This document shows, one piece after another, positions 6,730-64,000 of a stretch of DNA of 64,000 nucleotides. Position 1 is the first letter of the stretch. Each line of letters starts with the position of its first letter. Made by a program: the position numbers and the translations under genes. Under the pieces are notes generated by a model. The model was given only the letters and a program-made list of their open reading frames with translations. It was not told the origin of the DNA and ran no database searches. The stretch comes from Mizuhopecten yessoensis (taxonomy: Eukaryota): assembly GCF_002113885.1 (NCBI RefSeq), contig NW_018408493.1, forward strand, positions 1,027,249 through 1,091,248, written 5' to 3'.

Positions 6730-9700
6730 ATGTTGGGAAGGTAACCGTATAATCTCGTATAACGAAGGATTATGAATTCATGTGCTAAACTCTGTCATTG
6801 TATGTATTGATATTCTCTCTTTATCTTATGTGTACTTGAGTATTTGCCCCTGCAAAATACGGAGAAAGCATAATATGTTGATGTAACGTTACGATTGATT
6901 CAGAGAAAAAAAATGAGAGTAACCTGATTTTGTTTTAAACCTTCTCATAATGTATCTATATAACCTATTCAAAAAATGTTTGCTCCTTTTGTTTTTGAAA
7001 TATTTCATATGCAAAACTATGTAAATATATATTAACAGTATCTCTTTATCTAACGTGTACTTGGGTATTTGCTCCCTGCGGAATAAGGAGAAAACTTTAT
7101 ATGCTAATGTAGCGTTACCATTTTACGGATTTCTGAACATCTCTTGCGAGAGAGCTGATTTCGTTTTAAAACCTGCTCATAATACATCTAAAACATCTAA
7201 GCCGTTCTTGTTCCTTTTCTTAAACGTCACTGAAGACCAGTTGAGCGTATATATGAACAGGGGCCNGAATAGTATCTCTTTATCTAACGTGTACTTGGGT
7301 ATTTGCTTCCTGCGGATGTAGCGTTACCATTTTACGGATTTGTGAACATCTCTTGCGAGTGAGCTGATTTCGTTTTAAAACCTTCTCATAATACATCTAA
7401 AACACCTAAGCCGTTCTTGTTCCTTTTGTTAAACGTCACTGAAGACCAGTAGAGCGTAAATATGAACAGGGTCCGCAGTGGCCAAGTGGTTATTGTGTCT
7501 GACATTCTGCTATCACTAGCCCCCCCAGCACTGGGTTGCGGGTTCGAGGGCTGGTGATTTTTGGTTGTTGTTGTTGTTGTTGGGGGGGGGGGGGGAACTT
7601 TTTTGAATACTTTTTTGGTTGGGTATTCTTTATATGCATATAATTAATGCCCTTAATCGATATACATCATCTAATATCTTTTTGCAAACAATTCTGTAAA
7701 ATGGTGTATGTTGCTGTTTTTTAGATTATGATATTATGAAGGTTTATTTTATTAATATAGTTATTTCGTCCTCGTGACGGTTATGACATGGACGATAGCG
7801 ATGGCGACAATAGACAACAGTGATGGTAAGTTTCCTTATAGATGTAATATGTATTCATCGATCTCACCTTGTAACTCAAAATAAGGCATGACTCAGTAGG
7901 TTTTTTTTTAATACAGTCCAGGTTTTAGAAGAATATTGTGTAACAGGAGAGAAAAATGCACGACCAGACCGGGGTTCGAACCCTGGACCTTCCGAACTCT
8001 AGACGGACAATCTACCAATTGAGCTACCTGGTCGCCGACGATCGACCCAGTCTAGTTCCGTTACATTCCTCCCTCCTTTTTCTAACTCTTCGCTCCCGAA
8101 AACACAACTATTTACAACCCAGGTTCGGGTAGCCCTTTAACAAGCATACAAGGGTTTGGCATAGGCATCACTGTAACAGGAGAGGAAATATGCACGATCA
8201 GTCCGGGGTTCGAACCCGTGACCCTCCGAACTCTAGACGGACAATCTACCAATTGAGCTACCTGGTCGCCGACGATCGATCCAGTCCAGTTCCACTACAA
8301 TTGTAATAATAACTTTAGTTCTTTTATAACGATCATGAAACAAGTTATATGAACTTATATTAACCACTTGTGTTGGTATGGAGGGTAGCCCGCAGTGGGT
8401 TTTAATGTGGGAGGAAACCGGAGTACCCAGAGAAAACCGACGTGGTTGGACAGGCGACTCCATACCTTTACACGTCTGATCGGGAACTATAACCTTGGCC
8501 GTTTTGGTAAAAAGGCGATTGCGCTATCCACTGTGCCAACTGAACACTTGCGTATATTGTAAATTAAGAAAATATAAAATAATGAGTAATCAATACAACA
8601 ATATTGATGACGGATATATAGGTTTGAAATGTTCGTCGATGTCCTTTTCGCTATATTCTACATGTGATTCGGAACACTAAGTCATTTTTTTATATGCTTT
8701 CATGCTTATGTCTTCCATTGATGCTTTAATGTTAATGTCTACCATTGATGCTTTTATGCTTATGTCTACCATTGATGCGGTATGCTTATGTCTACCATTG
8801 ATGCGGTATGCTTATGTCTACCATTGATGCGGTATGCTTATGTCTCCCATTGATCCGGTATGCTTATGTCTCCCATTGATGCTTTATGCTTCATGCTTTT
8901 GTCTACTGTTTATGCTTATGTCTACCACTAATGCGTTTTTGCTCATGTCTACCATTGATGTGGTATGCTTATGTCTACCATTGATGTGGTATGATTATGT
9001 CTACCATTGATGAGGTATGCTTATGTCTCCTATTGATGAGGTATGCTTATGTCTCCCATTGATGATTATGTCTACCATTGATGCTTGTATGCTTTTGTCT
9101 ACCATTGATACGTTTATGCTTATGTCTACCATTGATGCTGTTATGATTATGTCTACTATTGGTGCTTTATGCTTATGCCTTCCGTTAATGCTTTATGGTT
9201 TTGTCTACCATTAATGCTTTTTATGCTTATGTCTACCATTAATGCATTTATGCTTATGTCTACCATTGATGCTGTATGCTTATGTCTACCATTGATGCTT
9301 GGCTGCTTATGTCTTCCGTTGATGCTTTATGCTTTTGTCTACCATTGATGCGTTTGTGCTTATGTCTACCATTAATACTTTTATGATTATGTCTACTATT
9401 GGTGCTTTATACTTTATGCTTTATGCTTTTATGATTATGTCTACTATTGGGGCTTTATGCTTTTGTCCTCCGTTAATGCTTTATGATTTTGTCTACCATT
9501 AATGATTTTATGCTTATGTCTACCATTGATGCATTACGCTTATGTCTACCATTGATGCGGTATGCTTATGTCTCTCATTGATCCGGTATGCTTATGTCTA
9601 CAATTGATGCTTTATGCTTCATGCTTTTGTCTACCGTTTATGCTTATGTCTACCATTGATGCTTTTATGATTATGTCTACCATTGATACTTTATGATTAT

Positions 9701-12700
9701 GTCTACCATTGATGCGTGTATGCTTATGTCGACCATTGATGCGTCTATGCTTTTGTCTACCGTTAATGCTTTTATGATTAAGTCTACTATTGGTGCTTTA
9801 TGCTTATGTTTTCCGTTAATGCTTTATGCTTTTGTCTACCATTGATGCATTTATGCTTATGTCTACCATTAATGCTTTTATGATTATGTCTACTATTGGT
9901 GCTTTATGCTTATGTCTTCCGTTAATGCTTTATGCTTTTGTCTACCATTAATGCTTTTATGCTTATGTCTACCATTGATGCGTTTATGCTTATGTCTACC
10001 ATTGATGATGTATGCTTATGTCTACCATTGATGCCTGGCTGATTATGTCTACCATTGATGCTTTCTGCTTATGTCTACCATTGATGTTGTATGCTTATGT
10101 CTTCCGTTGATGCTTTATGCTTTTGCCTACCATTGATGCGTTTGTGCTTATGTATACCATTAATGTTTTTATGATTATGTCTACTATTGGTGCTTTATGC
10201 TTATGTCTACCATTGATGCTTTATGCTTTATGCTTTTATGATTATGTCTACTATTGGGGCTTTATGCTTTTGTCCTCCGTTAATGCTTTATGCTTTTGTC
10301 TACCATTAATGATTTTATGCTGATGTCTACCATTGGTGCTTGATGCTTATGTCTACCATTGATGGTTGTATGCTTATATAAACCATTGATGCTTTTATGC
10401 CTGTTTTCTGTTTTACCATAATTCTCAACATGTGCTTTAAAGGAATTTCTGCAGTTTAATAAAGCATAAAAGACAAAACAAGTTGAGATTGCGATCCATC
10501 CTCACACGGAGCAGAAAACGTTCTTCAGAATTTGTTGGTCATATTTATCTACATCACGTGACAAATATTTGGATGTACATGTACCCTTATAAGTCTCATA
10601 TGCAAAAAACTCCATTCATATAGACGGATTGGAAAAAAAATAGAGGAAAATGTTTTAGTAACATTACTTTTGAAGTGTTACTGCTAATAGATAACGGTTT
10701 ACAACACTTTTCTAATATCTATACTATTTTGTGTTACTAAACGTTCTATTTTGGTATTTTATATAGTGACAATTATCAGTGCGAAAATTACTGCAGAGGT
10801 GCGGTTTGACTGCAGTCGACGGAGCGACAACGAGGTGAGACCCCGGGATACACAATAAACGATGCGTCACGTTGTTATGTGTTGTCACATGATACACAAT
10901 AAATGATGCATCTGTCATGTGATGCTTGTTTCTTTTTTGGTTAAAGCTGGATTTCTCTAAGTTGCATCGTCACATCTGTTAGAAATTCTGCTTAATTTAA
11001 TAACAATTTTGATTACGATAAAATCGAATATATTTTAAATTCTAAATATGAACATTTAGTCAGGATTTAAAAAAGTATTTTGATGAAGGTCTTTGTTTGT
11101 GTGTCTTCGTAGATTCTGATGCTGTCTTTTCGTTTCTAAATTCCGATTCCGCGGGTTTTCACAGTGTTTCATTGTATATATGTATATTAAATTGTTTCCT
11201 CTTTTTTCAGGTTATGATTTGGAAAGTCTCGACAAAATCTGGGACGAAAGTCTTCAATGTCAAGGACAAATGTGATCGCAAAGCAAATGATCCAATTGAC
11301 GTGAGAAAACGGTGTATAGATGATAGATATGGTTTTGACCTTGTAATAAAAAAGATCATAGAAGATGACGAAGGCATTTATGAATGTGCTGCTGCCAGAC
11401 CCACCGACGTTCTAAAAAAATACGACTTTAGAATAGAAAGTATGTTTTTATAGTTATCTAAACCGAACTTGTTAAAATTCGGATCAGTAATTCGAAACTA
11501 CTTCAGTGATCATTCCAGCATTGCTTATCTTGAAAATTTTCACATAAAAATAACTTATTTAAAAATATGTTATTGTGCATAGCGTTTTAATTTATAACGA
11601 ATGTGAACTCATTCTCTGTAATTTTATTGGACATTTCTCGAAACAATTGTCTTAAGAAGTGTTAAAACAGAGGGACCATTGTTAAACTTAGTCTCGTTCC
11701 CCATCGTCATGTAAGGGAGAATGAAGTTAGTTTCTTAATTAATATTGACGTGTTAATTCGGCAATGGCTCATTTCACGATTATCCTTTAATTCTTCCCAT
11801 AGTTAAATATACTTATTTCAGGGGTTATTAAAATCATTCATCGACCTGTGAACAAGGTAATAATTGTATAATGTTGACATTTTCAGGAAAAGCCTTTATT
11901 CCCGAGTTCGCCTACACAAAAGATGCAACTGTAATGGAAGGAAACACTGCTAGACTATGGTGTAATGCTTCCGGATTTCCCATTCCTTCTGTTCTATGGC
12001 AAGTTGTGGACATTGATTCGAATAACAGAGAGTCTTTCCACGATATTGGTAAGTACACTGTACCTACTTGGATAATATGAGAATATATTGCTCCAGTGTG
12101 GTAGGCCAATCACTCCAGCTACAAATAAGTATATCTTATATATAAAGGTTTTTTAGAGTTAGTATAAAAGTAGTATAATATACATATTGTACGTATATGT
12201 ATTTGCATATGACAAGAGTGCTTTTGTATATCATTATGTCTCGTTTTTATCTAAATGATATATATTTTGTATATAATTCCGTCAAAACCTTGCTGTCAAC
12301 TTATTGTCTTAATTGCTATTTTTGTTACATTTATTTGTATGTGAATTTAATGATGTAAGCACTTATGAAAATTACTTTTCTTTTGGAAAATTATTACATC
12401 AAATTTTTTGCTTACCATCCTGAATATTAATTTATAGGCTTTTGAATCGTAATGTTTCATATTCTCCAAAACAGAAAGAAAGTTACATGAAGTTAGGAGG
12501 AAATAAGCGCTTACTTGCTGCAGTGACCTTTCAAAAAATATCCAGTTGTTAAACATGAAACCAAAATAAATTTTCCGTTCTCGCTTACTTGCCTGAAAAA
12601 ACAGCAAGAACTTAAAGTTTCTAAACGTGAAAAAATCATGTGCCTTTCTTAGTTTTTCTTTTCATGCAGTTATCTGATATTTAATTGATAAGTTATATTA

Positions 12701-16915: not shown

Positions 16916-17636
16916 CGTCAGGGGGATTTCGCCGATGCAACACCGGTCACTGATTTTTATGATATGCTAGTACTTCTTCTCAAATATACTTCAGCAGCAT
17001 CTGATTTTAGATTCTACAAATGAATTCTGACATCACCAGTCAATCGTAAGTACAAATTTATGCGACAAATATTTGATTAATAAATATTTTTTATATGTTA
17101 CATTGATGCTTTTCTGAATTAAAGAAAACTTCTTTATTAAATAAACTTTTTTTGTCGGTGAGCAATATTTATGTCTATCCTTCAATGTAAATACAAAAAT
17201 AAGTTATGAAAATGATGATTTGATTGGCAAATTAACATAACAGTTACTCGAGGGACAGATCCCGTCTTTTAGATATTACAAAAACGCGTATCACACTAAC
17301 TTAAGGTTGGTATGGTTTCAACTGCTATACAAAGATGGAAGATAACAATTCGATGAAATAAACAATTATCAAATCATTTATACTAACAACACAAAACAAG
17401 ATATCAAATTTTGATTAAATTACATACTGTCCATACAAATGTACATAAGCAATATATATGTAATATACAAGTTATTTTAACAAATATTCCCATGATATCC
17501 GGTTTTTCAAAACATATTTCTTTTAACAATGTAAGGTCAACAACGCATTAAGGTTTTTCTCTTGAAAGAACTTATACACATGTAATAAATCTGAATTCTT
17601 AATTCAGTTTTAAGGACAGGTTTCACTTTTACGAAG

Positions 17637-18758
17637 ATGACGACTGGATTTATTCAACTCCCAAACACAGCGTCAACCGGAAATGACGACAATATAACTG
17701 AAATTATTGACAACCAGACATATGGAGGGAATATGACGTCACCAGTTTCATTCGTGCAGGAAAGTCAGTTAGAATATGCAACTTCAATAATATCAGTTAT
17801 CGTTTTTATTGTTGGCCTCATTGGAAATATGTTAACACTTAATATAATATCCAATACAAAATTCCGGAACTTATCATCCCGAAAGTTTTTGGCTGCTTTG
17901 AGTGTGTCCAACTCACTTCTTCTACTAACACAAGTATTCAACAGAAAATACGTGATACAGATTTTCGGCTTCGATGCACGAGCTATCTCTACAACTGGAT
18001 GTAAGACATTTTTTGTCATGTTCAAGACAGCGAAAATGACATCCTCGTTGTTTGTGGTATCGATTTCTGTAGAGCGATTTATTGCTGTTTGGTTCCCGCT
18101 CAAAGTTAAATTCGTTTGTGTTAACCATGTTGTATATATTGTTATCGCTATAGTCTACATTTTGATTGGATCTTTTAATTCTGTTTGGTCATTTAGTTCC
18201 GGGGTCATAGGGGGCATTTGTCATCCAGATATTGTGACATCATCAATCGCACAACAACACAAGGTGTTACTCATCATTGGGTCCTTGCTTTATTCTATCA
18301 TCCCTTTGATCATTTTAATCTTTGTCACTCCTTTCATAATGGCTAAACTCGTTAGCGGAAACAAACAACGTCGGAAAATTTCGCAAACAACATCAACAAG
18401 AATAATTAATCGAAACAACACCCACGCGTCAATATTGGTCCTTTGCATTTTGATATCATACATGCTTCTTGTTATCCCTATTACCATATTTCATAATGTG
18501 GCTTTTTTTAAAGGAGTACGAGCTTTTGGTGAGAACGATGAAAGTTTCGAAACGTTTAAATCTATTGCGCAAATGCTTGAGCAAATAAATTACGCCATCA
18601 ATTTCTTCTTGTATACCATGGTGTCGGAAAAATTTCGTCGTCATCTGCTTGAAATGTTTTGCTGTCATAAAATTCGAGCTATGCGAGACTCAACGTTTCG
18701 AGGTTTATCCAAACGCACTGTTGTGTATACTATTAGCGCCGAATCTACCACCAAATGA
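17637..18758 (+). CDS. Rhodopsin-like (class A) GPCR, invertebrate peptide/FMRFamide-receptor-like orphan, single coding exon
   Basis: 373-aa ORF with 7 hydrophobic segments; TM1 GLIGN, TM3 ISVERFIAVWFP, TM5 YSIIP, TM6 LLVIP, TM7 NYAINFFLY followed by FR helix 8; N-terminal N-glycosylation sites (NIT, NQT, NMT). Confidence 0.93.
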   Translation: MTTGFIQLPNTASTGNDDNITEIIDNQTYGGNMTSPVSFVQESQLEYATSIISVIVFIVGLIGNMLTLNIISNTKFRNLSSRKFLAALSVSNSLLLLTQVFNRKYVIQIFGFDARAISTTGCKTFFVMFKTAKMTSSLFVVSISVERFIAVWFPLKVKFVCVNHVVYIVIAIVYILIGSFNSVWSFSSGVIGGICHPDIVTSSIAQQHKVLLIIGSLLYSIIPLIILIFVTPFIMAKLVSGNKQRRKISQTTSTRIINRNNTHASILVLCILISYMLLVIPITIFHNVAFFKGVRAFGENDESFETFKSIAQMLEQINYAINFFLYTMVSEKFRRHLLEMFCCHKIRAMRDSTFRGLSKRTVVYTISAESTTK

Positions 18759-34200: not shown

Positions 34201-37200
34201 TAATACTACATGAACTAAAATGTGTACACAGTTCAGATTCCTGCAGGTGAAATGAATGTTAATTTGCAAGGTGAGAAATAATGAGAGACACTTAACAAGA
34301 TAGACATATTAAAAAATTGAAATAAGAGTTTGCATGAATATTTCAGAAAGCAGATGAAAAACAAATTACAATAAATTTTCTCGCGTTTACTTATTTGGAG
34401 CGAAAATACCCACATGCAGGGGAAATTGCACAATATGAAATGAATGTATAGCAGCCTTGCCGACGCTTCCTGCATCGAAAGGCAAACTTTCCATGGACAA
34501 ACTTAAATATACCTGGTTGTGATAGACAAAACACTCCAGCGACAGTCCTGTAATCACATTTACATGTTTCACCCCACTTAAGGTCACAGTCGTCGAGCGT
34601 GTTCGCTGTTGAACTGCAGTTAAGATTTGACAACCAGCGGAAGTTATTTTTGTGGATATTTCCCAACTTTTCAGTCTGTGTATGATGTCTGAAAAGTACA
34701 ATGTGCAAGAATTGCTTCTCTTTCCTTCATTTGTCATTGTGGCATTTTTTAACTTATGGTATAAATATCGTACCATCGGATAACTTTTGTTTCAACCCAT
34801 TATGCACTGTGCATAGTATGTAGGCAAAATCAACTCGGCACATATGATATTTACTCGGCACAACATCAAAGGCAATAATTATGAATTAATTCGTGCTTAT
34901 ATTTCATTGAACTTTATTTGATGTAATATGACGTAGTATCATTTCAATTAATTTACTGACATGTGTTTATTTACTGAAATAAATCTAAAAATCTGATAAT
35001 ACCCGTTTGATTTCTAAGTTGTAATGAAAGCTAAGGGAGATGAATTTACTGAAATAATTATAAAAATCTGATAATACCCGTATGATTTCTAAGTTGTAAT
35101 GAAAGCTAAGGGAGATGAATCCTTATCATTCTGATGGATTTTATAAGGCTAGCAGGAGTTATCTTCCCTTATATACCAGTATGTCAAACGATGGTTTCTT
35201 ACCGATAGGCAGTTCCGTATAGATGTCCCCTCATCTTACAGATCACAGTGGCGTCCACGTCATCGAATCCCTCAGAACAGATGTAGCCGTATTGGTGGAA
35301 ATGAGACACTTTTACGTATCCATGGTCAGCATTTTGAAGCTGTAATTGTGCTAAAAACAAATTCAAATTGGTCAAATATTGTTTTCAGAAAATATAAAGT
35401 TTCTCTAATGAATTTTACCTGTGTAAACATGTATCAACAAAATTAGAAAAAAACGCTTTCTTCAAAATATACCACAATTAGTTGTTCATCTGTCAAGAAT
35501 GAATTCTTTCCATTTGACCTACATTTTGTAAGATACCGATATTTTTCAATCATAAAATAAAAAAATATTTGTTAATGTTTCCCCTTAAATATCATTCATG
35601 TTCCATAAGTATGGATGAATATTTCAGTATTTTGAAGAGAGTGCAAGCGAGAATCAAAGTGTTTCATAATTCTGTCAGAAAAGGGAAATATTAATGTTAT
35701 TCAACGGGAACTTTTTCAACATTCTGGTTTTACATTTTTAAAGTTTTAAAATAAATTGAAAGGCAGGCATGGTGACAAACAGCAGAACGTCACAATCTCT
35801 TCACTTTGTGGGATCACCAAGTTCAAGTTTTATTTTTACACTCATGACACACACTAGGTGTTTCAAGAGGTCAACATTTAATACTTTTCAATTACATAGC
35901 AAAGTGAGTACAGATTGTTTATACAACATGTAAATATATAATAATACAGAATAATAACACTGCATTTATCTTATGTCACTTACAGCCTTAATTGATTTTT
36001 TTCTAGAAAACGACTTATTTTAGATAAAACATTTAAATTACAAATAGGAATCATTCCTTTTAGCTTAAAATTGCTGGGGTTTGTAGTGTAATAATTATGG
36101 ATGTATATTTTTCTTATTGATGATATTTAAGTATTTTGGCATTTAAATAAATAATGTGGTTCATCACCTATACCTGTTTGACATAAATGACATATTCTAT
36201 CTGATTTTGGAGTTGCGTTCCAGCGTCCAGTCTCTATTGGGAAATTCAGATTAGACGTTCGGAATTTACAAATACTTTTCCTATCTTTTTCATTAAGTTT
36301 TGTTAGATATGATTCATACTGAAAGTTTGTCTTAAATATGGAGTAGAATTTCCCACGAGAAGAGTTTTCTATCTCTTGGAACCATTTCTGTATAAATTGA
36401 TATTTTAACCGCTGTTTAACTACAGCTTTGAAATGATTTCTATTCATAGTACATGTATTTTGAAAAATCCACAAATTGCTAAAACCTAACTTGTTTAATA
36501 TATCTTTTATGTAATTGTTCCACTTTAAATGCATTTGTTCACTTGATTGTAAAACATATGCCATTTTATATATCAGACTAGATAACTTGCTCCCGCCAGT
36601 TAGCAACTTAAACCAGAACATGATCATTCTTTTCTTGATTTCTACTTCTAGAGGATATCTCCAGGTTTCTCCATAAATCATGTAATTCGGAGTAGAATTT
36701 TTCACATTCATGATTCTTTTACAAAATTGCAAATGCATTCTTTCTTTGGTAATAGTGTTTTCAAATCCCCATATCTCACAAGCATACAATAGGATCAGTG
36801 CAAGAAGAGAATCAAATAACTTAAGTTGCAAATCAACAAAAAAATAGAATATTTCGTATTTTCTTGTACAATGCATATAGTGCCTTTTTAGCTTGTTCAG
36901 TTATTTTTGTTTTTGCTTTACTAAATGTGCCATTGCTATTAAATTAAATGCCCAGATTTGAATAAGAATTTTTGACTTCGATATTTTCTTCATTCAATTT
37001 AAACACATATTGTTGTCTACGTTTTCTTTTTTCAAAGATGACGACTTTCGTTTTCTGTACATTAATATTCAACTGCCAACTTCTACAATAGTTTTGAAAC
37101 ACATTCAGGGCATGTTGTAACCCTTCCGGTGTCTCAGCCATTAACACAGTATCATCCGCATACAGTATTATAAAAAGTTTAAGATACATTCCAATGTTAA

Positions 37201-40200
37201 TTTGACAGAGTCTTTCTACATGATTAAGATATGCAACATCATGTTGGTTTAAAAAATCGTCAAGATCATTCAGGTATAGGGAAAACAAAAATGGGGATAC
37301 ATTTTCCCCCTGTTTTAATCCGACATTACAAACGAAAAATTTCGAAATTTCATTTCCGTTTTTAACACATGACTTGGTACTTAAATATAAGTTTTGAATA
37401 ACCTTAAAAACTTTTCCATTTGTGTCGAATGCTTTTCGAAAATCAACAAATGTACAGTACAGCCTTTTCCCTTGGGCAAAATATGTGTTTATTAATGAGT
37501 GTAATATAAAAAATATTTTCAGTCGTCGAGTAACCTGCCTCAGAGGGAGAAATTAGGTTAATTTCATCAGCTAATTTAGTTAATCTATTATTTATGATAT
37601 GGGTAAACACTTTCCCCAAGCAAGACACAAGAGTTATAGCTCTATAGTTGTCCGTGTCGCAAGTTTCTCCTTTATTTTTATAAATAGGCTTAATTATTCC
37701 AACTGTCCAAGAGTCTGGGACTAATCCAGTATTTAGTATACTGTTGGATAACATTGTATTAATTTACTCGTGATATGCTCATCTAAAATGTCATCTTTTC
37801 CACATGCTTTGTTATGTCTTAAATTAGTTACCGCATGTATAACCTCTTCCTCTGAAATATCTTCGTCTAGTATTTGGTAAAAATTGTTATCTTCTTGTTC
37901 GGGAATATATATGTTTGGTATGTCAGCTTTATTAGATTTAGCTTTACCAGATAATTTATTTAATAAGTTCCATAGTGTTCTGGGGTTACTATTTGCAGAT
38001 TCCCTTATATCCCTTTCCATTTAATGCTGATATTCCTTAAAACACCTATTCATTTCTTTTCTATATTGTTTACTCTTATTTCTGAGGGATTTTTGTTTAT
38101 TTGATTATTTACTACAGGTCCTCCCACATTAACACCCCACGCACGAACGTTCGGGCTGCAAGAAGGATTATTGTAAGTGGGAAAAAATTGATCATTCCTA
38201 AGGAATGATAACTCAACCACAAATCGTTTGGAAAATGTTTAAATTAGGATACACTTTTAATAACGGTTATCATATCGTTCGACAAAAACATTTCGCTCAC
38301 AATACTCACTTGCTGAAGGTGACCAGACGACCGCACACACCACACTGATATATTCGTTGGTCGGACAATAGTTTGTGCTTTCGTATTTGCAATCTGCCAA
38401 CTTTGTCTCAGTTCCGTTGCAGTTGACGTTTGAAATCGCATAGGGATTCGACATCTCGCCGAACGTGGAACATCGCACGGTAATGCCATTCTGATTCCCT
38501 TGTTCTTTGCACAAAATTTCCGCAGCTACGTTTCCGAAATGACCGTCATCGCATACCAAACCATAGTTCGATAACTTGTCGTCCCAGAACGTAACAGGAC
38601 CATAATACCTACTGGTTAACAACGAAGCTGAAAGACATATTTAAAGCAAAATTAAACCATGAACTATGGTCACCATAAATGAATATGTTCAAAAATCATC
38701 TACTGTATAACATGAACGTATACCAGATAATAGTAATTTACTTTTGAAATAAAATCCAATATAGCTGATGTAATGCCGACAAATACTAAATATTATTACG
38801 AATATTATTCTGTATAAAATAATACAATAAAATTGAACATATTTGAGAAGAATTGACAAGAAACAAGTTTATAGCCGTAAAACAGGCGATAACCATAATG
38901 TGAAATACATATTTTGAATGAGCAAAAACAAAATTAGTTCAATAGCCTTAAAGATTAAATAGAAAGTTAAGAACTATCAACGAGATTTCAATCAAATGAA
39001 AACCCACACTTGTAGATGATCAAGAAGCAGGTTGAATATCTTGTTTGGTCATCGTCATGATCTTATTGGGGGAGAAAATATGTGATAAGAAGGCCAATGG
39101 TTTTGTGTTTGTTTGACTGCCCTGGTTTTCGCTTGACATTATGGTAATTGGATTGACCTACATTTACATGACAGGCGTCGTCGATGAAGAAGATGACGCT
39201 TAACATTCCGGATCACCTGGTCTTAAACATTTGTACTTCTCAAGCGTCTTTACGTTAAAATGTGGGGTTTTATTCTTTGTTTCTTTTCTCTTAAAACGCT
39301 CTTAGCTTAGATATTCCTACATTTCACATTTGTTATCAAATATTTACAGTTGAACTTTATGTCAAGAGTTGATTTTCTTTAACAATATTAAAATATATTT
39401 TTTATATATTCTAGGTTCTTATAAACCGCTTTATCGCAACCTAGTTCGGAGGTCTTCTCAAAGCGGTTCACAAATTGTATCCGTGGTTATAGGGCCTTTG
39501 CAACCAGCCAATATCTTTCTCAGCTCCATGGGGAACATACAGCCGGTGATTCCATTTCGGCGCTCACAGCTCGCATTCTACATTTCTAGCACTGCCGAAC
39601 CACATACTCATTTACAGCGGAGTAAAGTATCTTGTTTAAAGATACAACACAGTGCCGTGCCATGACTCGAACTCGCAACCCTTCGGTCACGAGCCCGGCG
39701 TCCTACCACTAGACTAACGTGCCTCCTTAAAAGAATTCAAGAAATATACTCTGAAAAAACTCACTGATTTAAATAATCTAGAGGATTCACATAATTAGGA
39801 AGTTTTGTGATTTCGAGGTTAAAAGAGTGTTATTATAGGGAACATTTACTTACAATTCATATTTAGGCACGTACAGTATTATTTCTAAATATTTTGAAAG
39901 AATTCTTTGCTATGTGGCAAAACAGAATTACCCCAAGGAAGACAGATGACGCCAGCGTCATCATTGTGGGCGTTACAACCATGTGAGGACATGTTCCAAC
40001 CAAAGTTAGGACAAGACAGGATGCTGGACTCTGTCCCGTCACACTCGACCTGATCGAGATAAACAGGTCCCACCCCTTGGCCGAAGAACGACTACAAAAA
40101 AGGTTAGACGAATAAAACATAACAAAGAGGTATGGCGGAAAACTGCCCGTATTAAGTCGGCATTTTTGAAACGGAAAAAAATATTGATGAGTAAATATTT

Positions 40201-51930: not shown

Positions 51931-52428
51931 CTGAATGTCAAGTCAATACAGAAAACTGAAGAAAGCACGCTGGCTACGAAGGATTCTAGACAAAGCGACC
52001 ATTATCAATAGAACTGTAGAATGTCTTGTAAATTAAGTAAGTTTTGTACACGTCATAATGTAGTACCTTGGTATAGTGTAGCTGGGGTTTTTAAAGGCAT
52101 AGTGTTAAATTACATTTCTCCCACAACCACTGTAGGTTTCCTCACTTATGACTCATTGGATAAACCTGCTAGAAGTTGTTAACATTCAACAATTGGGTAA
52201 CACCTTGGACGTGATTTCATTGGTCAATCTTTGATTTATGACGTAACGTAACAATGCTTTTCGACGTCATTTTCCATTGTGACGCCAGGCAACATGGCAA
52301 TCGTTTCCCCCATCGGAAACACACATGATGTATTTTCCAAGGGGGAAAATGTGGAGTTGGGGGGGGGGGGGTTCAGATGAAATACGAACATTTTGGGAGT
52401 TATAGGTCCCCAAACTCGTGATGACTAC

Positions 52429-52544
52429 TTATCACATTTATCTAACTCTCGTTAGTTAATTTTCAAATTGTAAGAAACACTCTGGCACCTCGTGTCTTCA
52501 TACAATTTAAAGATTAACTAACTCGAGTTAGATAAACATAATAA
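52429..52544. repeat. Imperfect inverted repeat
   Basis: TTTATCTAACTC..GTTAGTTAAT..AAATTGTA pairs with TACAATTT..ATTAACTAAC..GAGTTAGATAAA. Confidence 0.65.
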
Positions 52545-52563
52545 CCAACCATTACTTGTTGGG

Positions 52564-52899
52564 CATCCTCGACATCCAGGGGTTACGGTCATTTACGCTC
52601 TCTACACTCCTGGAATATGTCATAGCAAAATTGAAGACTTAGTGTGCGCCACCTTGTTGAAGAAGGAAAGTTCGACCCTTTGATGTACATCAAAAGAATC
52701 TCGCGATCACGTAACGGTAGCTTTCAAGGCGGGCGTCTCTCCTTTGTAATCTTCAAAGGACAGGTATCAGCCTAGTGATTGTTCAGTGTTTTTTTCCTGA
52801 GACCAATCAAATAGCTATCTTCGTGCCTTCAATTTTGCTATGACATATTCCAGGGGTGCAGAGAGCGAAAGTGAGCGTAACCCCTGGATATCGACGATG
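52564..52899. mobile_element. MITE with about 73-bp TIRs (CATCCTCGACATCCAGGGGTTACG...) and 9-bp TSD (Mutator-like)
   Basis: TIRs directly visible; flanks CTTGTTGGG / CTCGTTGGG. Confidence 0.85.
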
Positions 52900-53742: not shown

Positions 53743-53879
53743 NCATATGTAGTAAACCTACTTACTGTTCTCACTGCAATACTTTGGATAAAAACCTTTC
53801 GGCTTTTCCCAATCTTTTTTCCTTTGCATCTCGCATGTGACGATATAAACCAACAAAGAATCATGTTCAACATTTAATG

Positions 53880-54200
53880 AATCACTTCTAAATTCACATG
53901 TTTCTGGCTTTGTTTCTAGGGGTATATTTGTCCATATGTTCCGAAATGCTGTCTCCATCTGAGCCTTCGTGGTGATGTTATGTGTCACTTTTTGCAGTTC
54001 AAGTTTAATTTTACGCCACATATTTTCAATTATATTTAAATCTTGACTGTGTGTCGGCCATTCCATACGGTACCATGAAGTTGATTTTGTTCCATGTACT
54101 CTTTCACAGAATTAGCTGTATGGACCGAAATGATGAGCAATAACTGGCCAAACAAAATTGTCAACTATCTCAATATATTAATATTACCAGTTACAACAGT
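53880..54200 (-). mobile_element. Tc1/mariner transposase remnant
   Basis: MEWPTHSQDLNIIENMWRKIK matches the Tc1 WP..SPDLNPIEN.W catalytic-domain motif. Confidence 0.75.
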
Positions 54201-55542: not shown

Positions 55543-58500
55543 CTAGAAAGGAAAACAGTCGATTGTTATTTTGTATTTAAAAGCGTCAGGGTCATGAATT
55601 AAACAGTAGCTCTGGAAAATAGATGGGTATTTTTACAGAACGCAAATCCGAATGGTTGGATCGTCTCCAAAGCTGGAAGCATACATTCAATATGGCCCTG
55701 ACGAAAGGCAAGAGCCCTAAAACATTTTCAAGTGTACTTCATTCTACGGATATGATATTTATGCATCCAGAAACAAAACAAAAAAATAAAGGTAGGTTTG
55801 TTTAAGCGTCCGGAAATAGAGAATATGGATTATAAAAATCGGACAAGCGAGGTACATGTTAGTCATTCTCCAAGTTCCCGTTATGTGGTGTGACATAACT
55901 TGAATTTGACTTATATCTATTTTGCAACACGGGTGTCGACAACGAAGCAGACGACCCTTACCCTTTTTGACTGAACATTTGGTCTAATTTTCCATTTACT
56001 TTTTCAAGACCTTCCGTGTAATTATTTCCTTTGTTCATACTTCGCCCAAGTTTTATCGAATTTGAGTTTGAATTGCTGTTTTGTTCATAAATATTCTCTT
56101 GCGGTATTCTCTTGTTATTTTACATCCTAGTGTAACTTCAGGGGGTTACACTCACTTTTGCTCTCTGCACCCTTTCGAATTTTTTATTGCAAAGTTGAAA
56201 GCACGCGACTAGTTATTTGATTGGTTGCAGGTAAAACAAATCCTCACTAATCGTCAGGCTGATGCTTTGTGCTTTAATTTACATCAAAGGATCAAACTCG
56301 TCTTCTCGACGCATTCACAAGGGGGTCACATTGAGCCTTTGATTTTGCTATGACATATTCCAGGGGTGTAGAGAGCGAAAGTAAGCGTAGCCCCTGGAGT
56401 ATCGAGGATGGTTATTTAACTGTGTACTTACATGTTTAGCAGTATGATGACGACGGAGTTATCCTGTAGAAGAAATCCCTCACACTTCAGTGCGGTAGAA
56501 CCATACACAGAGAGAGATATTCTGGTAGAGCCGGGGGGAAGGAATTTACTGCAAAAAAGACAGTACTCGGTTTACAATGTGAAATATGAGGCAAACAAAA
56601 AAACAGAAGATTTTGTTAAATTCAGCTTACTAGAAGAAATATGTTTTACTTTCTTTCAGTGGAAATTAAATGTAAATACAAGTGGCTAAATATGAGAGGA
56701 AAAGACACAATTATGTTACGTCATCAACAGTAGGTGTCAACGGAGTTAACCTTTTTTCGCGCCATTTTGATGTAACGTCAACCTCTTTTGACATAAATAA
56801 AAAAAAAAATGTTGAACACTGTGACACTTCAAGGTAAAGCAAACTTCCGAGTCTTGGGGATCTTGACCGAAACAACACGGATTTAAACCTCAGGTTTCGC
56901 GTAATGATTCAGTTAAGATCCAAATCCAACAATTGAAATTTTCGTGATGCGCAAACTTTGTCCATCTCGCCGTAACAAAATGGAATCAGTTCACGTCAGG
57001 TTTCTTAGTATTCGAAGCGGAATCCAACTTCTGTTCTGGAAACTTAACTGAAACTGGGGTTTTCGGCTGTGGAATCCTGAATTTATCCTGACTGCGAATT
57101 CTGCAACTTGATATTTATGGAGTTGCTATTCTGACTGAAACATGGTTTTCTAAAACCAAACATCTGAGAGAGATTTCAGCTTTCATCAACTGTGTCGATC
57201 TAACCGAGCCCCAACTAAAACCTAGGTTTCCGCATCAGAATCTTAGCGGACTTTTAATGTTTCCGCTTCACACTTATCTAAAACCCTATACATTATGTAA
57301 ATTACATAATAATAATATTAATAATTCGAGGTTATTGTTTACCTCTTTATCACAACCAAGTTTGTAGGTCGTCTCAAAGCGGTTCACAAATTATTATCCG
57401 TGGTCATAGGGCCTTTGCAACCAGCCAAATCTTTCTCAACTCCCTGGGGAGCATGCGTGCCTCCATAAATTATACTTTCCTGTATAGAACAATGAAGTTG
57501 CCGAACCTCTATTTTGGGGCAGGCTTCTGGTTATTCAGTCTTATATCTTACGTTTGAAATTAGTATTGCTAAGCTTTCTTAATTCATGGCATAGAGGAAC
57601 TTAAACTTCGGAATTGAACACAACTTTTATGCAAAATACAGGGCCATTGTGAGTACATTTTACATATTTTTAATTTTTTGAAGTTTTTGTCATAGGTCTT
57701 CATCCCCATGAGAAACGTGAAAGAACTTCATGTACATGTATATGAAAATTATTTTACATGCACATTGTATAAATGTTTGGTACACAGTTTTACGTGGTTA
57801 GGATGGCCAAACTGCTAATTGTCTGTATTTCCAATTGTCCATTAATGAGTTTGAATATAAAATGTGCCCAATGGCCACTACTGATCACCGATACTTCTTA
57901 AGTCGAACCATTGAAGATTTTATACTTGCACAAACTTGAACATGATTCTGGTATGGATTGGTAACATCACGGACCATTCAAAGTGAGGCGGAATTACATT
58001 GACCTTTCGGGGTCACATTGTTGTTCGTGACGTCATTAACAATCGATTTCATGACACGTCAAAGTCAGCTGGCATCATTGACGTAATTAAAAGTCGCAAT
58101 ACGGGCCTCATTTAAGGATTTACCTGCATTTTGACGGCGTATACGGTAGTATAAGCGCAGTTGGCAACGAACATATTCTATATGTTGTCTGTTAGCGCTC
58201 CATAAAGAATATGTTCGTTGCCAACTGCGTTCATACTACCGTAAACGCCGTCAAAACGAAGGTCAATCCTCATACTATTTTAACATCATAAATAATGGTC
58301 AAATGCTATACAAAGAAAAAAACATGCGAAGTGGGTCGCTACGATGGTAACTACGGTAGCCGTGGTTGCTAGGATAATATAGTTCCAGTGAATCTACATC
58401 GATATATAGGTAAATTTAGAAAATACGCAGTGAACAACACTGTTTTTCTTCTTTTCGTTGCCTTTAAAATCTTAATAAAATGTATTCATTTATAACGGTC

Positions 58501-61500: not shown

Positions 61501-63069
61501 CAATTTTTGTGTACCCTTAACAAATGTGTCATCAATTCATTACTGAGAAAACATCACCAAACATTAAAGATGTTTTACATGTTTTTTAGAGCAGAACTCT
61601 TTTGGAAAGAAGATTAATGTCACAATGAGGCCAGTAGCATAAATCCTTGAATAACATTTATACATATAAATGCATGTACATTTTAACGAATTATAAATAA
61701 ATTACGATCAAGCCTTTTCGTGATTGAAAGCGGTGCCTGAAAACGATTAATCAATTGGCTACATAATTGTTGCAGTATATTCGATTTGATAATATAATAC
61801 TCGCAAAATTTTATGAGATTAAACTTGGGAGAAAATGCATGTATTCTGGATTTGTGTTTTGAAATTTGCTTCTTAAACGTGCGAAGTGCATGCAATAGTT
61901 CGTGTAGCTAACAATATGGGATATTTGCTGATCAACTTATAAAATGGCCCCTTTATTTAATTCTATATTTAAGTTGCCATTTACAAGGTGTATCTTTTGG
62001 TTTACATTTGGCAAACCAAATCACACATTATACAGGCAGCACTTACTTTGCAAAATACAGGGCCCACGTTTTGAAGTATTTTCCACCAGGTTCACCAATG
62101 AGCGACCCTTTCCCTGTCATGGACTGGTCAGTTTTCATCCACGCAGGGGCGCTCCACGGGCTGCCAAACACGCGGACCGGCCGTCCCAGGGACAGGGCTT
62201 TCTGCAGGAACGGGATCTGTTTGGAACAAAAGGGGAAATTCATACTTTAGGAATGTCTCTTTCACTATTTGGTTATATATTTTCTGTGTTAGGAGATATT
62301 TTTCATAAACATTTCTTTCATTCTTATGTTTATTTATTATGTTTTTATTAGGATTTTTATTATAATTATAATACGTTTTTATTGTGTTTTTTAATATGTT
62401 CATATTCAGATATCCACAATGTATTTTTCTTGATGTCACGAATCACAGGAGACATTAATTAAATGAAGCTAAGCCTAGTAGAAAAATTCCAGTAGCACAA
62501 CCAGTGACATGTTTAAAGTGTTTATACTGTACGTCACGTTTCGATGACTAGGACAACTGTGTACTCTGTCACCGTCATCAGACATACCGTACATACAAAA
62601 TGTACCGTCCTAGTCATCAAAACGTCACACATAAACGTATAAATGGTTGTGCTACAGGAACCTTTCTACAGTTCACATTTACGAACACGAAGAAAATGTT
62701 TAGAAAATTAAGACGAAACAATATATTTTTTCCGTTTTTTATGTATTTCACAATAACTGTTATTCTAAAAAAAATATTGTAGATTAAAGTATATTAAGAA
62801 AACGTTTGTATCTGAAGGGAGGGGAAATCACTGACAACTACAAGACAAACAGTGACAAGCGTGTTCCCTCTTGACACCCGTAATTGTATCACCTACATGT
62901 GTTTTGGTGACAAAACTTCTAACAAAGAAATATACCTTGTATTTGAGATCTTCTGGTGCTAGAGAAAACTTGGTCAAGTTGAAATCGTTTGCCGTGTCGT
63001 CATAGGAGTATTCTCGCGTGGAGAAATCACAGCTCGCCATTGGTACTCTAGCGACATTGTACTCAATAC
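55434..63069 (-). CDS. GBA: Lysosomal acid glucosylceramidase (GH30), 3' seven exons; the 5' part lies beyond the window end
   Basis: Exons 63069-62936 ([10 protein letters not shown]), 62216-62047 ([11 protein letters not shown]), 61251-61014 (AQNEP acid/base), 60588-60361 (IAVHWY..GTEAC nucleophile), 59163-59000 ([24 protein letters not shown]), 56548-56432 (SKFLPPGS), 55542-55434 ([11 protein letters not shown]); all phases compatible. Confidence 0.95.
56123..56410. mobile_element. Second MITE of the CATCCT-TIR family, 9-bp TSD, in the last GBA intron
   Basis: Left CATCCT..CAGGGGGTTACACTCACTTTTGCTCTCTGCACCC; right TTTTGCTATGACATATTCCAGGGGTGTAGAGAGCGAAAG..TCGAGGATG; flanks GTTATTTTA / GTTATTTAA. 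Confidence 0.8.
56432..56548 (-). CDS. GBA: GBA penultimate exon (absent from ORF track)
   Basis: [13 protein letters not shown]...[10 protein letters not shown]. Confidence 0.88.
57330..57463 (-). mobile_element. Internally deleted copy of the 39410-39726 SINE
   Basis: Shares TCTCAAAGCGGTTCACAAATT..CCGTGGT.ATAGGGCCTTTGCAACCAGCCAA..GGGA.CAT, then jumps to the head terminus CGTGCCTCC. Confidence 0.7.
58115..58270. mobile_element. 156-bp foldback palindrome
   Basis: TTTTGACGGCGT.TACGGTAGTAT..CGCAGTTGGCAACGAACATATTCT pairs with AGAATATGTTCGTTGCCAACTGCG..ATACTACCGTA.ACGCCGTCAAAA. Confidence 0.8.
59000..59163 (-). CDS. GBA: GBA exon
   Basis: [31 protein letters not shown]. Confidence 0.95.
59523..59857. 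mobile_element. MITE with about 57-bp TIRs and 9-bp TSD (Mutator-like)
   Basis: TAGTC.GAATT.TTCTGACGTTTTAT..TCTGGCGTCGAT / ATCGACGCCAGA..ATAAAACGTCAGAA.AATTC.GACTA; flanks GGCCAATTG / GGTCAATTG. Confidence 0.8.
60361..60588 (-). CDS. GBA: GBA exon with catalytic nucleophile
   Basis: GIAVHWY...IFGTEAC...[16 protein letters not shown]. Confidence 0.93.
61014..61251 (-). CDS. GBA: GBA exon with catalytic acid/base
   Basis: [12 protein letters not shown]...[11 protein letters not shown]. Confidence 0.95.
62047..62216 (-). CDS. GBA: GBA exon
   Basis: [13 protein letters not shown]...YFKTWALYF. Confidence 0.95.
62936..63069 (-). CDS. GBA: GBA exon
   Basis: [25 protein letters not shown]...EDLKYK. 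Confidence 0.95.
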
Positions 63070-63104
63070 CTGAAATGTCAGAAAGCCATCGCTACTGAGT
63101 TGAC

Positions 63105-63661
63105 CATCCTCGACATCCAGGGGTAACGCTCACTTTCGCTCTCTACACCCCTGGAATCATACTCGACATCCAGGGGTTACCCTCACTTTCGCTCTCTACA
63201 CCCCTGGAATCATCCTCGACATCCAGGGGTTACGCTCACTTTCGCTTTCTGCGCCCCTGGAATCATCCTCGACATTCAGGGGTTACGCTCACTTTCGCTC
63301 TCTGCACCCCTGGAATCATCCTCGACATCCAGGGGTTACGCTCACTTTCGCTTTCTGCGCCCCTGGAATCATCCTCGACATTCAGGGGTTACGCTCACTT
63401 TCGCTTTCTGCACCCCTGGAATCATACTCGACATCCAGGGGTTACGCTCACTTTCGTTCTCTGCACCCCTGGAATCATCCTGGACATTCAGGAGTTACGC
63501 TCACTTCGTTCTCTGCACCCCTGGAATCATCCTCGACATCCAGGGGTTACGCTCACTTTCGCTCTCTGCACCCCTGGAATCATCCTCGACATTCAGGGGT
63601 TACGCTCACTTTGCTCTCTGCACAGAGCGAAAGTGAGCGTAACACCTGGATATCGAGGATG
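63105..63661. repeat. 53-bp tandem array derived from a MITE TIR, ending in an inverted copy
   Basis: Units start at 63105, 63158, 63211, 63264, 63317, 63370, 63423, 63476, 63528, 63581; the unit matches the first 53 bp of the TIR at 52564; the last unit folds back. Confidence 0.93.
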
Positions 63662-64000
63662 ACCAAACGGTTAAGCAGTAACTCGAAGATGGTGACTAGA
63701 CACTAGAAAAAAAATATAAGAACCTTAATTGAAAAGAAAGGTCTCGAAACTCGACTAAGAGTGACTTTCCTTCCTTATACTCATATTTTTGACATCAGCT
63801 AAAAACATCAAAATTTTGGTAAACCTGAAACTTGGCCTTTTTCATTTTTTTTATTTTTCTGGAAATAGATATAATAAATCTATTAGATATAATGCATTTT
63901 TATCATGAATAATGATATAGTTTAATTTTTTAACTTTATCCTGCCAGTCAAAGAACAAGAAAAACAATTGTTGCGAAAGATTTTCACATAACTGCATACG

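What the first reader, a model, noticed from the sequence alone, without database searches (positions are those of the whole stretch)
63105..63661. Satellite apparently forming from a transposon end: ten tandem TIR copies closed by one inverted TIR
Seen: nine full 52-53-bp units plus a tenth partial unit, each matching the outer 53 bp of the MITE TIR at 52564/56123. The tenth unit folds back at TGCA (63619-63622) into an inverted TIR ending GAGGATG, giving a loopless hairpin of about 80 bp. Each unit has its own inverted repeat (TCCAGGGG..CCCCTGGA). From unit 3 on, ATCCAGG and ATTCAGG alternate strictly, i.e. a 106-bp dimer. No TSD flanks it, and it starts 35 bp from a GBA 3' splice site. Inference: the structure is still formally a TIR-bounded element (left end x10 plus right end). 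It could have arisen by hairpin-driven slippage or abortive transposition/gap repair, presents an array of putative transposase-binding sites, and could yield hairpin RNA from the GBA pre-mRNA.
Basis: partly seen in the sequence, partly recalled or inferred. Interest (0 to 1): 0.75.

Follow-up and report, generated by a model that had tools for sequence, protein, structure and literature searches.

The report
Minisatellite built from scallop transposon ends
In an intron of a scallop gene the outer 53 bases of a common small DNA transposon are repeated ten times and closed by one reversed end; it is likely a neutral minisatellite of a known type, likely started by one transposon landing inside the end of another, and the same head-to-tail join likely recurs at other places in the genome.

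Summary
The array is there as described. 63105-63623 holds nine 52-53-bp units plus 43 bp of a tenth, 83-96% identical to the outer 53 bp of the 73-bp TIR of a MITE with 9-bp TSDs (two intact copies in the window). An inverted end follows to 63661. Host: a scallop (GBA exon 100% identical to a Mizuhopecten yessoensis protein).

Corrections:
- The hairpin has a 6-nt loop.
- The 106-bp dimer rests on one site (permutation p=0.19).
- A decayed second right end (63662-63691) is followed by a 7/9 copy of the left 9-mer, so a TSD may exist just outside.

Contigs of three DNA runs run from the flank into unit 1. Many other contigs cross the same 53-bp join with a base none of these units has, and other joins also restart at TIR base 1. 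So TIR multimers likely recur genome-wide.

Best model: a nested insertion into a TIR seeded a dimer, slippage or unequal exchange expanded it, and a deletion across the stem made the cap. It is likely neutral.

Precedents: tandem-TIR MULEs, Tetris TIR-220, Xstir. Unit count, cap and splicing effect were not verified with reads.

The parts
63105..63580 (+). Units 1-9: head-to-tail copies of bases 1-53 of the MITE TIR (unit 8 is 52 bp); all carry C at unit position 10
   Evidence: 21 differences from unit 9 over 519 bp (4.0%)
63581..63623 (+). Unit 10, partial (TIR bases 1-44 with one base missing), ending in the TGCA palindrome
63624..63661 (-). Inverted cap: TIR bases 38 to 1 (43 to 1 if TGCA is shared), with T at position 10 like the right TIR of the 52564 copy; an independent TIR copy, not a mirror of unit 10
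63662..63691 (-). Candidate decayed second right end (8/9 match to the TIR terminus plus the GTTAC..GCTTA part, 9-10 bp missing)
   Evidence: local score reached by 2-3% of 5000 random 40-mers; 8/9 terminus in 0.14% of 200,000 random stretches
63096..63104 (+). Left 9-mer TGAGTTGAC, candidate old TSD copy
63693..63701 (+). TGACTAGAC, 7/9 match to the left 9-mer, one base after the decayed end; candidate old TSD copy
   Evidence: 0.18% of 20,000 random 9-mers; joint pattern 0 of 200,000; criteria chosen after seeing it
52564..52899 (.). Intact MITE copy m1, 336 bp, 73-bp TIRs, 9-bp TSD 8/9
56123..56410 (.). MITE copy m2, 288 bp, opposite orientation, left TIR degenerate, 9-bp TSD 8/9; lies in a GBA intron 21 bp from a splice donor
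62936..63069 (-). GBA (glucosylceramidase-like) exon, 134 bp; its acceptor is 35 bp from the array

Best explanation
The array is a non-coding minisatellite made of the outer 53 bases of a non-autonomous DNA transposon with 9-bp target duplications (likely Mutator-like), likely seeded when one transposon end was inserted into the end of another copy, likely expanded by slippage or unequal exchange, and likely neutral in its intron. Step 1 (inferred): the transposase joins base 1 of one end bluntly to base 53 of another TIR, which makes a 53-bp direct repeat. Step 2 (inferred from shared variants): the pair grows by one- and two-unit steps to ten units. Step 3 (inferred): the interior of the element is lost by a deletion across the paired TIRs at the TGCA palindrome, leaving an 81-bp hairpin end. 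Step 4 (weaker): all this sits in an older copy whose decayed right end and TSD survive at 63662-63701. The same 53-bp join likely exists at other loci, so this is one member of a dispersed TIR-multimer family.
For: Shown: units align to TIR bases 1-53. The join has no overlap with the inner TIR, which continues ATGTC in both intact copies. 2 of 2 intact copies have 9-bp TSDs at 8/9, and 9 is the best length of 2-12. 4 of 18 listed runs, laid on flank plus units 1-2: records 3, 17 and 29 run from unique flank to 63144 in the three DNA runs, without differences in unit 1. Joints restart at TIR base 1 after inner positions 47, 48, 53 and 58 (tables 5, 5c; my reading of the letters between), as nested insertions would. 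60-101 contigs per run show C at 63161 and 54-99 show T at unit position 10, which is 96-99% of the depth there, while 0 of 10 units here have that T. Record 4 (3,335 bp) carries the join at its end and does not lie on this flank. Expansion: units 3 and 5 are identical, even units share C13T, units 7-8 share C35T and units 1-2 share G41A. Neutrality: the 134-bp exon would frameshift if skipped (inference), and unit 1 is present in 3 of 3 DNA runs from three studies. Ferguson and Jiang name nested insertion with TSD loss, slippage and recombination as candidate routes to tandem TIRs (PMC3310237).
Against: A clean nested insertion would leave a copy of TIR bases 45-53 after the cap; it is absent, so an extra deletion must be assumed. 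Unit 1 is near-consensus (2 differences) while the outer end is much decayed, which needs a further recombination or conversion step. No contig listed has 31 or more letters on both sides of the join, which is the tool's bridging rule; the best has 30 and 37. The tool warns that summed depth is no copy number and that joints in repeats can mislead, and 425 loose ends and 9,739 pieces were not shown. The difference counts of junction contigs (5-9) overlap those of this array's own joins (2-10), so counts alone do not show other loci. No autonomous partner was found, and the CATCC terminus differs from the GG/GA heads of the five bivalve MULE consensus records shown.
Confidence: 0.6

Rival explanations
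1. The seed was made without transposase: the hairpin inside the TIR stalls replication, and a template switch or loop excision duplicates bases 1-53 (first reader; Xstir-type model).
For: Each unit folds into a hairpin whose 3' arm ends at about base 51-53 (unit 9, -9.0 kcal/mol). The cap fits a deletion across a stem. Stem-loop excision models exist for Xstir and Angel (review PMC12628747, section 4).
Against: The unit starts exactly at the element's first base with no microhomology to the inner TIR. Joints at four inner positions all restart at base 1, which slippage would not favour.
Confidence: 0.2
2. A foldback-like subfamily with a multimerised end is itself mobile; this copy jumped here as a unit, and one TSD copy was lost or lies at 63693-63701.
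For: Both termini are intact. The join is abundant in contigs. A candidate TSD lies just outside. Tandem-TIR MULEs transpose in tomato (PMC3310237).
Against: No TSD next to the cap (0/9). This array's units differ at position 10 from 96-99% of the depth at that place. In tomato only 1 of 12 distinct elements with a one-sided extra TIR had a second copy.
Confidence: 0.13
3. The array is kept because it regulates GBA splicing or yields small RNAs from the pre-mRNA.
For: It lies 35 bp from an acceptor. The intron RNA folds far better than shuffles (-282.5 kcal/mol, z -16.6, 0 of 20). Unit 1 is present in 3 of 3 DNA runs.
Against: Any intact copy of this MITE folds strongly (m1, -86.3 kcal/mol as DNA). 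A second copy lies 21 bp from a donor of the same gene. No Rfam match. The variants look like drift. Splicing was not tested: the RNA-guess run covered only 14 of 30 bins.
Confidence: 0.04
4. Assembly artefact: a single MITE end was multiplied or folded back by the assembler or library.
For: No read or contig laid here spans the array. The window has five single Ns, which suggests a short-read consensus.
Against: Units differ in a structured way. The cap differs from unit 10 at five positions, so it is no mirror copy. Contigs across the join exist in 4 of 4 runs.
Confidence: 0.03

Closest known systems
MULEs with tandem or solo extra TIRs in tomato, Arabidopsis, rice and maize (Ferguson and Jiang 2012, PMC3310237)
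   Same: Extra TIR copies in tandem, no TSD at the inner TIR, mostly non-autonomous; nested insertion, slippage and recombination proposed
   Different: There 2-3 TIR copies of at least 100 bp, mostly on both ends, with clear TSDs. Here ten 53-bp copies on one side, no interior, TSD uncertain, in an animal.
Tetris foldback transposon and TIR-220 satellite of Drosophila virilis (Dias et al. 2014, PMC4079207)
   Same: Part of a TIR becomes a tandem repeat that grows by unequal crossing-over into arrays elsewhere in the genome (up to 66 copies there)
   Different: TIR-220 is an inner domain of a long modular TIR. Here the unit is the terminus itself, so each unit starts with the element's first base.
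Xstir repeats from the Xmix MITE of Xenopus (Hikosaka and Kawahara 2004; seen only through reviews PMC9659126 and PMC12628747)
   Same: MITE-derived tandem repeats, with MITE, array and composite forms; stem-loop excision model fits the cap
   Different: Described as derived from internal MITE sequence in one review and from the TIR in the other's table; another family.
TE dimers from double insertion that expand into arrays: hobo, P, Bari1 (McGurk and Barbash 2018, PMC5932611)
   Same: A transposition-made dimer expands by unequal exchange
   Different: There whole elements head-to-tail, often with a TSD or deletions at the join. Here a 53-bp end fragment.
Muta1 and other Aedes MULEs with subterminal tandem repeats (PMC5225508)
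   Same: 8-9-bp TSD, animal host, repeats in the TIR region
   Different: Repeats are 9-15 bp, subterminal and part of the normal TIR on both sides.

Membership tests
MITE (parent element) | Short, non-coding, TIR-bounded | tested here: met
   336 and 288 bp, 73-bp TIRs; no stop-free frame of 75 aa or more lies within either copy
MITE (parent element) | TSD and high copy number | tested here: met
   9-bp TSD 8/9 in 2 of 2 copies; over 200 contigs per DNA run join TIR base 1 to unrelated flanks (loose ends before 63104/63105: 213, 179, 194)
Mutator/MULE superfamily | TSD of 8-9 bp or slightly more | tested here: met
   9 bp; 8-9 bp in Aedes MULEs
Mutator/MULE superfamily | Long TIRs | tested here: inconclusive
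   73 bp; 12 of 14 Aedes families exceed 100 bp and 2 are under 60 bp
Mutator/MULE superfamily | Autonomous partner encoding a MULE DDE transposase with the same ends | tested here: inconclusive
   No record starting with this TIR in the curated bivalve DDE library, of which only about the first 400 letters per record were searchable; no genome held
hATm | 8-9-bp TSD with TAGGGTG termini | tested here: not met
   TSD fits, terminus is CATCCTC
Tandem-TIR MULE (Ferguson and Jiang) | Additional TIR in tandem, no TSD at the inner TIR | tested here: met
Tandem-TIR MULE (Ferguson and Jiang) | At least 100 bp similarity between outer and inner TIR | tested here: not met
   53 bp; criterion
Tandem-TIR MULE (Ferguson and Jiang) | Distinguishable TSD around the outermost ends | tested here: inconclusive
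   0/9 at 63661; 7/9 with a one-base offset at 63691
Foldback element (Tetris type) | Long modular TIRs with tandem repeats in both arms around a middle domain | tested here: not met
   Repeats on one side only, no middle domain
Minisatellite | Head-to-tail array of tens-of-bases units | tested here: met
Classical satellite DNA | Long arrays, high genome share, heterochromatic clusters | not testable with these tools
   Only summed contig depth at the join, which is no copy number
Higher-order repeat (106-bp dimer) | Alternate units more alike than neighbours across sites | tested here: inconclusive
   One alternating site p=0.029; all sites p=0.19; without it p=0.75

The most novel reading that the evidence does not exclude
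The 53-bp TIR multimer is a young scallop satellite family in which every unit begins with an intact transposon end. The family's transposase can bind and cut inside the arrays, drive their expansion, move multimer-plus-cap units, and be titrated by them, giving large copy-number differences between individuals (flank-scaled depth at the join differs about 14-fold between runs X3 and X1).
Probability: 0.15. Interest if true: 0.65.

Novelty: new variant of a known kind. Interest (0 to 1): 0.33.

Why it matters
Satellites born from transposon ends are known, but the route is unsettled; Ferguson and Jiang leave it open. Here the parent MITE, rare TIR-into-TIR joins at several positions, one amplified 53-bp register and a short array with readable variants appear to coexist in one species. 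That would make the path from nested insertion to satellite directly testable with one long-read assembly. If the transposase acts on the arrays, it would be a case of a satellite driven by the enzyme of its parent element. As it stands it is a tidy example of a known process with no shown function.

Tried and rejected
No genome is held for the window, so no genome-wide search was possible. Junction 19-mer in metagenome contigs: 4 hits, all without further similarity. TIR 25-mer in viral contigs: 0. TIR 20-mer in prokaryote genomes: 1 hit, about 1.1 expected by chance, no further similarity. Rfam on 62900-64000: 0. Earlier findings of the scan: none. Supplements of PMC10294476: 12 small files, the DDE library (file 24) and the LINE library (file 25) gave no record beginning with this TIR, but records are cut to about 400 letters and 19 of 33 files were not searched. 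Using difference counts to show that junction contigs come from other loci failed, because ranges overlap; the argument rests on the position-10 base and record 4. Splicing: run X11 (RNA only by guess) covered 14 of 30 bins and not the next exon, so it says nothing. No loose end behind 63104 (empty allele) was among the 24 shown, but 425 were not shown. Rejected: hATm (termini), foldback in the strict sense, a regular 106-bp higher-order repeat, coding function of the stop-free frames across the array (expected from a 53-bp unit, no homology search run). Eight paper searches listed no description of this MITE or a 53-bp scallop satellite; the library lacks most subscription papers, and Repbase and Dfam could not be searched.

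Full report
Observation. The array is present as described. TRF reports 63105-63623 with period 53, 9.8 copies and 93% matches. It splits into nine units of 53 bp (unit 8 has 52), 43 bp of a tenth, and 38 bp of inverted TIR ending at 63661. Units 1-9 match bases 1-53 of the TIR of the MITE at 52564-52899 at 87-96% (right end) and 83-91% (left end), and the right end of the copy at 56123-56410 at 81-91%. In the intact copies the TIR goes on to 73 bp. The units differ from unit 9 at 21 of 519 positions.

Unit 10 plus cap folds with a 6-nt loop, not without one. The cap differs from unit 10 at five positions and has T at position 10 where all ten units have C, so it is a separate TIR copy. The C/T alternation at position 13 is strict over units 3-10 (p=0.029), and units 3 and 5 are identical. 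Other variants are shared by neighbours (7-8, 1-2, 5-6), and a permutation test over all sites gives p=0.19, or 0.75 without that site. Both one- and two-unit steps likely occurred; it is not a regular dimer. There is no TSD at 63661 (0/9). However, 63662-63691 reads on the minus strand as a decayed TIR end, and one base later TGACTAGAC matches the left 9-mer TGAGTTGAC at 7/9. In random stretches of the window the first feature came up in 0.14%, the second in 0.18%, and both together in 0 of 200,000. A looser local-alignment score was reached by 2-3% of random 40-mers. These criteria were set after seeing the pattern, so I rate it likely (about two in three), not shown.

Host and context. A GBA exon is 100% identical to P0001, named glucosylceramidase-like of Mizuhopecten yessoensis, which maps to seven exons between 63069 and 55437 on the minus strand. 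The array starts 35 bp from the acceptor of the 134-bp exon; the copy at 56123-56410 lies 21 bp from a donor of the same gene. Both intact copies have 9-bp TSDs at 8/9, the best length among 2-12. That fits Mutator-like elements (8-9 bp in Aedes, PMC5225508, passages) and hATm, but hATm termini are TAGGGTG (PMC6004678, passages). MULEs are present in all mollusc genomes analysed in PMC10294476 (passages). No partner with these ends was found in its curated DDE library, of which only the first 400 or so letters per record could be searched. The superfamily is therefore likely, not shown.

Population evidence. Eighteen runs were listed, ten holding half or more of the words, all of one coded organism. 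I laid four of them (X1, X3, X9 and the RNA-guess X11) on 61900-63210, which holds the left flank and only units 1-2. In the three DNA runs, from three studies, a contig runs from unique flank to 63144 with no difference inside unit 1, so the insertion point is real and shared. The rest of the array, the cap and the right flank were not covered by this test. The TIR is very common: 213, 179 and 194 contigs in the DNA runs join base 1 to unrelated flanks, and 77-91 continue behind base 53 as in the intact MITE.

The join elsewhere. Short contigs cross 63157|63158 in all four runs (table 8), though none listed has the 31 letters on both sides that the tool asks for. At 63161, 60-101 contigs per run carry the consensus C. 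At unit position 10, 54-99 contigs carry T, 96-99% of the depth there, whereas none of the ten units here does. Record 4 of X1 is a 3,335-bp contig with 83 letters across the join and the rest off the stretch, which points to a second locus. Summed depth at 63161 is about 480, 6,700 and 850 times the flank depth; even divided by 31 for overlap of contigs it is 16, 216 and 27, against seven such joins in this array. The tool warns that this is no copy number, and I could not exclude that some of this depth comes from contigs that merely begin at a TIR start. Difference counts did not separate these contigs from the array's own joins. Tables 5 and 5c also show single-contig joints that, by my reading of the letters, restart at TIR base 1 after inner positions 47, 48, 53 and 58, and one inverted joint. 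Together this suggests that TIR-into-TIR joins form repeatedly and that the 53 register has amplified.

Mechanism. Shown: unit identity, blunt join at base 1, variant pattern, cap, insertion point in three runs. Inferred: a nested insertion by the transposase made the first 53-bp direct repeat, because the unit starts exactly at the terminus without microhomology and other joins do too. Slippage or unequal exchange then gave ten units. A deletion across the paired TIRs at TGCA removed the interior. Against this, the expected target copy after the cap is missing, and unit 1 looks young while the outer end looks old, so an added deletion or recombination between two left ends is needed. A hairpin-driven seed remains possible, since each unit folds (-9.0 kcal/mol). 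Mobility as a unit cannot be excluded, since one TSD copy could have been lost. A function is not indicated. The intron RNA folds strongly (z -16.6), but so does any intact copy, Rfam has no match, and X11 could not test splicing.

Comparison. Ferguson and Jiang describe MULEs with tandem or solo extra TIRs and name slippage, recombination and nested insertion with TSD loss as open possibilities; one-sided forms rarely amplified (PMC3310237: abstract, passages, section 3.1). Tetris gave the TIR-220 satellite from an inner TIR domain (PMC4079207, passages). Xstir and other MITE-derived repeats are listed in reviews (PMC9659126 passages; PMC12628747 passages and first part of section 4; PMC6947457 passages); I did not see the original Xstir paper. 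TE dimers expand into arrays in Drosophila (PMC5932611, passages). Coral CMITEs form arrays of whole elements (PMC2872659, abstract). The repeats named for scallops in PMC5874043 (passages) have other unit lengths. What differs here is that the unit is the terminus itself, ten times on one side, with no interior. Eight searches listed no account of this family; Repbase, Dfam, subscription papers and 19 unsearched supplement files could hold one.

Verdict. A real TIR-derived minisatellite, likely one of a dispersed family, formed by known processes and likely neutral. New variant of a known kind; interest 0.33. The bolder reading, a transposase-driven satellite of intact ends with large individual variation, is not excluded (about 0.15).

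Noticed in passing
   Followed up: partly
window 56123-56410: Second family member in the same GBA gene, 21 bp from a splice donor; three members lie within 11 kb and no other in the 64 kb.
   Followed up: partly
run X3: Flank-scaled depth is about 3.7 times higher on the TIR and about 14 times higher at the join than in X1: large arrays in that individual or an assembly effect.
   Followed up: no
window 8694-10400: 26-bp tandem array, 65 copies, 78% matches; a 14-17-bp stretch of it matches the interior of MITE m2 weakly (E about 0.2-0.6).
   Followed up: no
window 62478-62735: Another inverted-repeat element in the next GBA intron (I18) with raised contig depth and a 16-bp deletion allele at 62495 in X1 and X9.
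   Followed up: no
window 52410-52563: A 67-bp inverted repeat pair ends right at the left end of MITE m1 (I6): possibly another nested insertion.
   Followed up: no
window 24662-47117, minus strand: Many exons that look like scavenger-receptor cysteine-rich domains with a final membrane-spanning exon (label recalled from the translations, not tested).
   Followed up: no
window 17595-18755, plus strand: Intronless 387-aa frame that looks like a G-protein-coupled receptor (label recalled, not tested).
   Followed up: no
window 36130-38020 and 53761-54111, minus strand: Broken LINE-like reverse-transcriptase pieces in an intron, and a Tc1-like transposase fragment (labels recalled, not tested).
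   Followed up: no
window 7266, 16767, 19657, 50106, 53743: Five single Ns.
   Followed up: no
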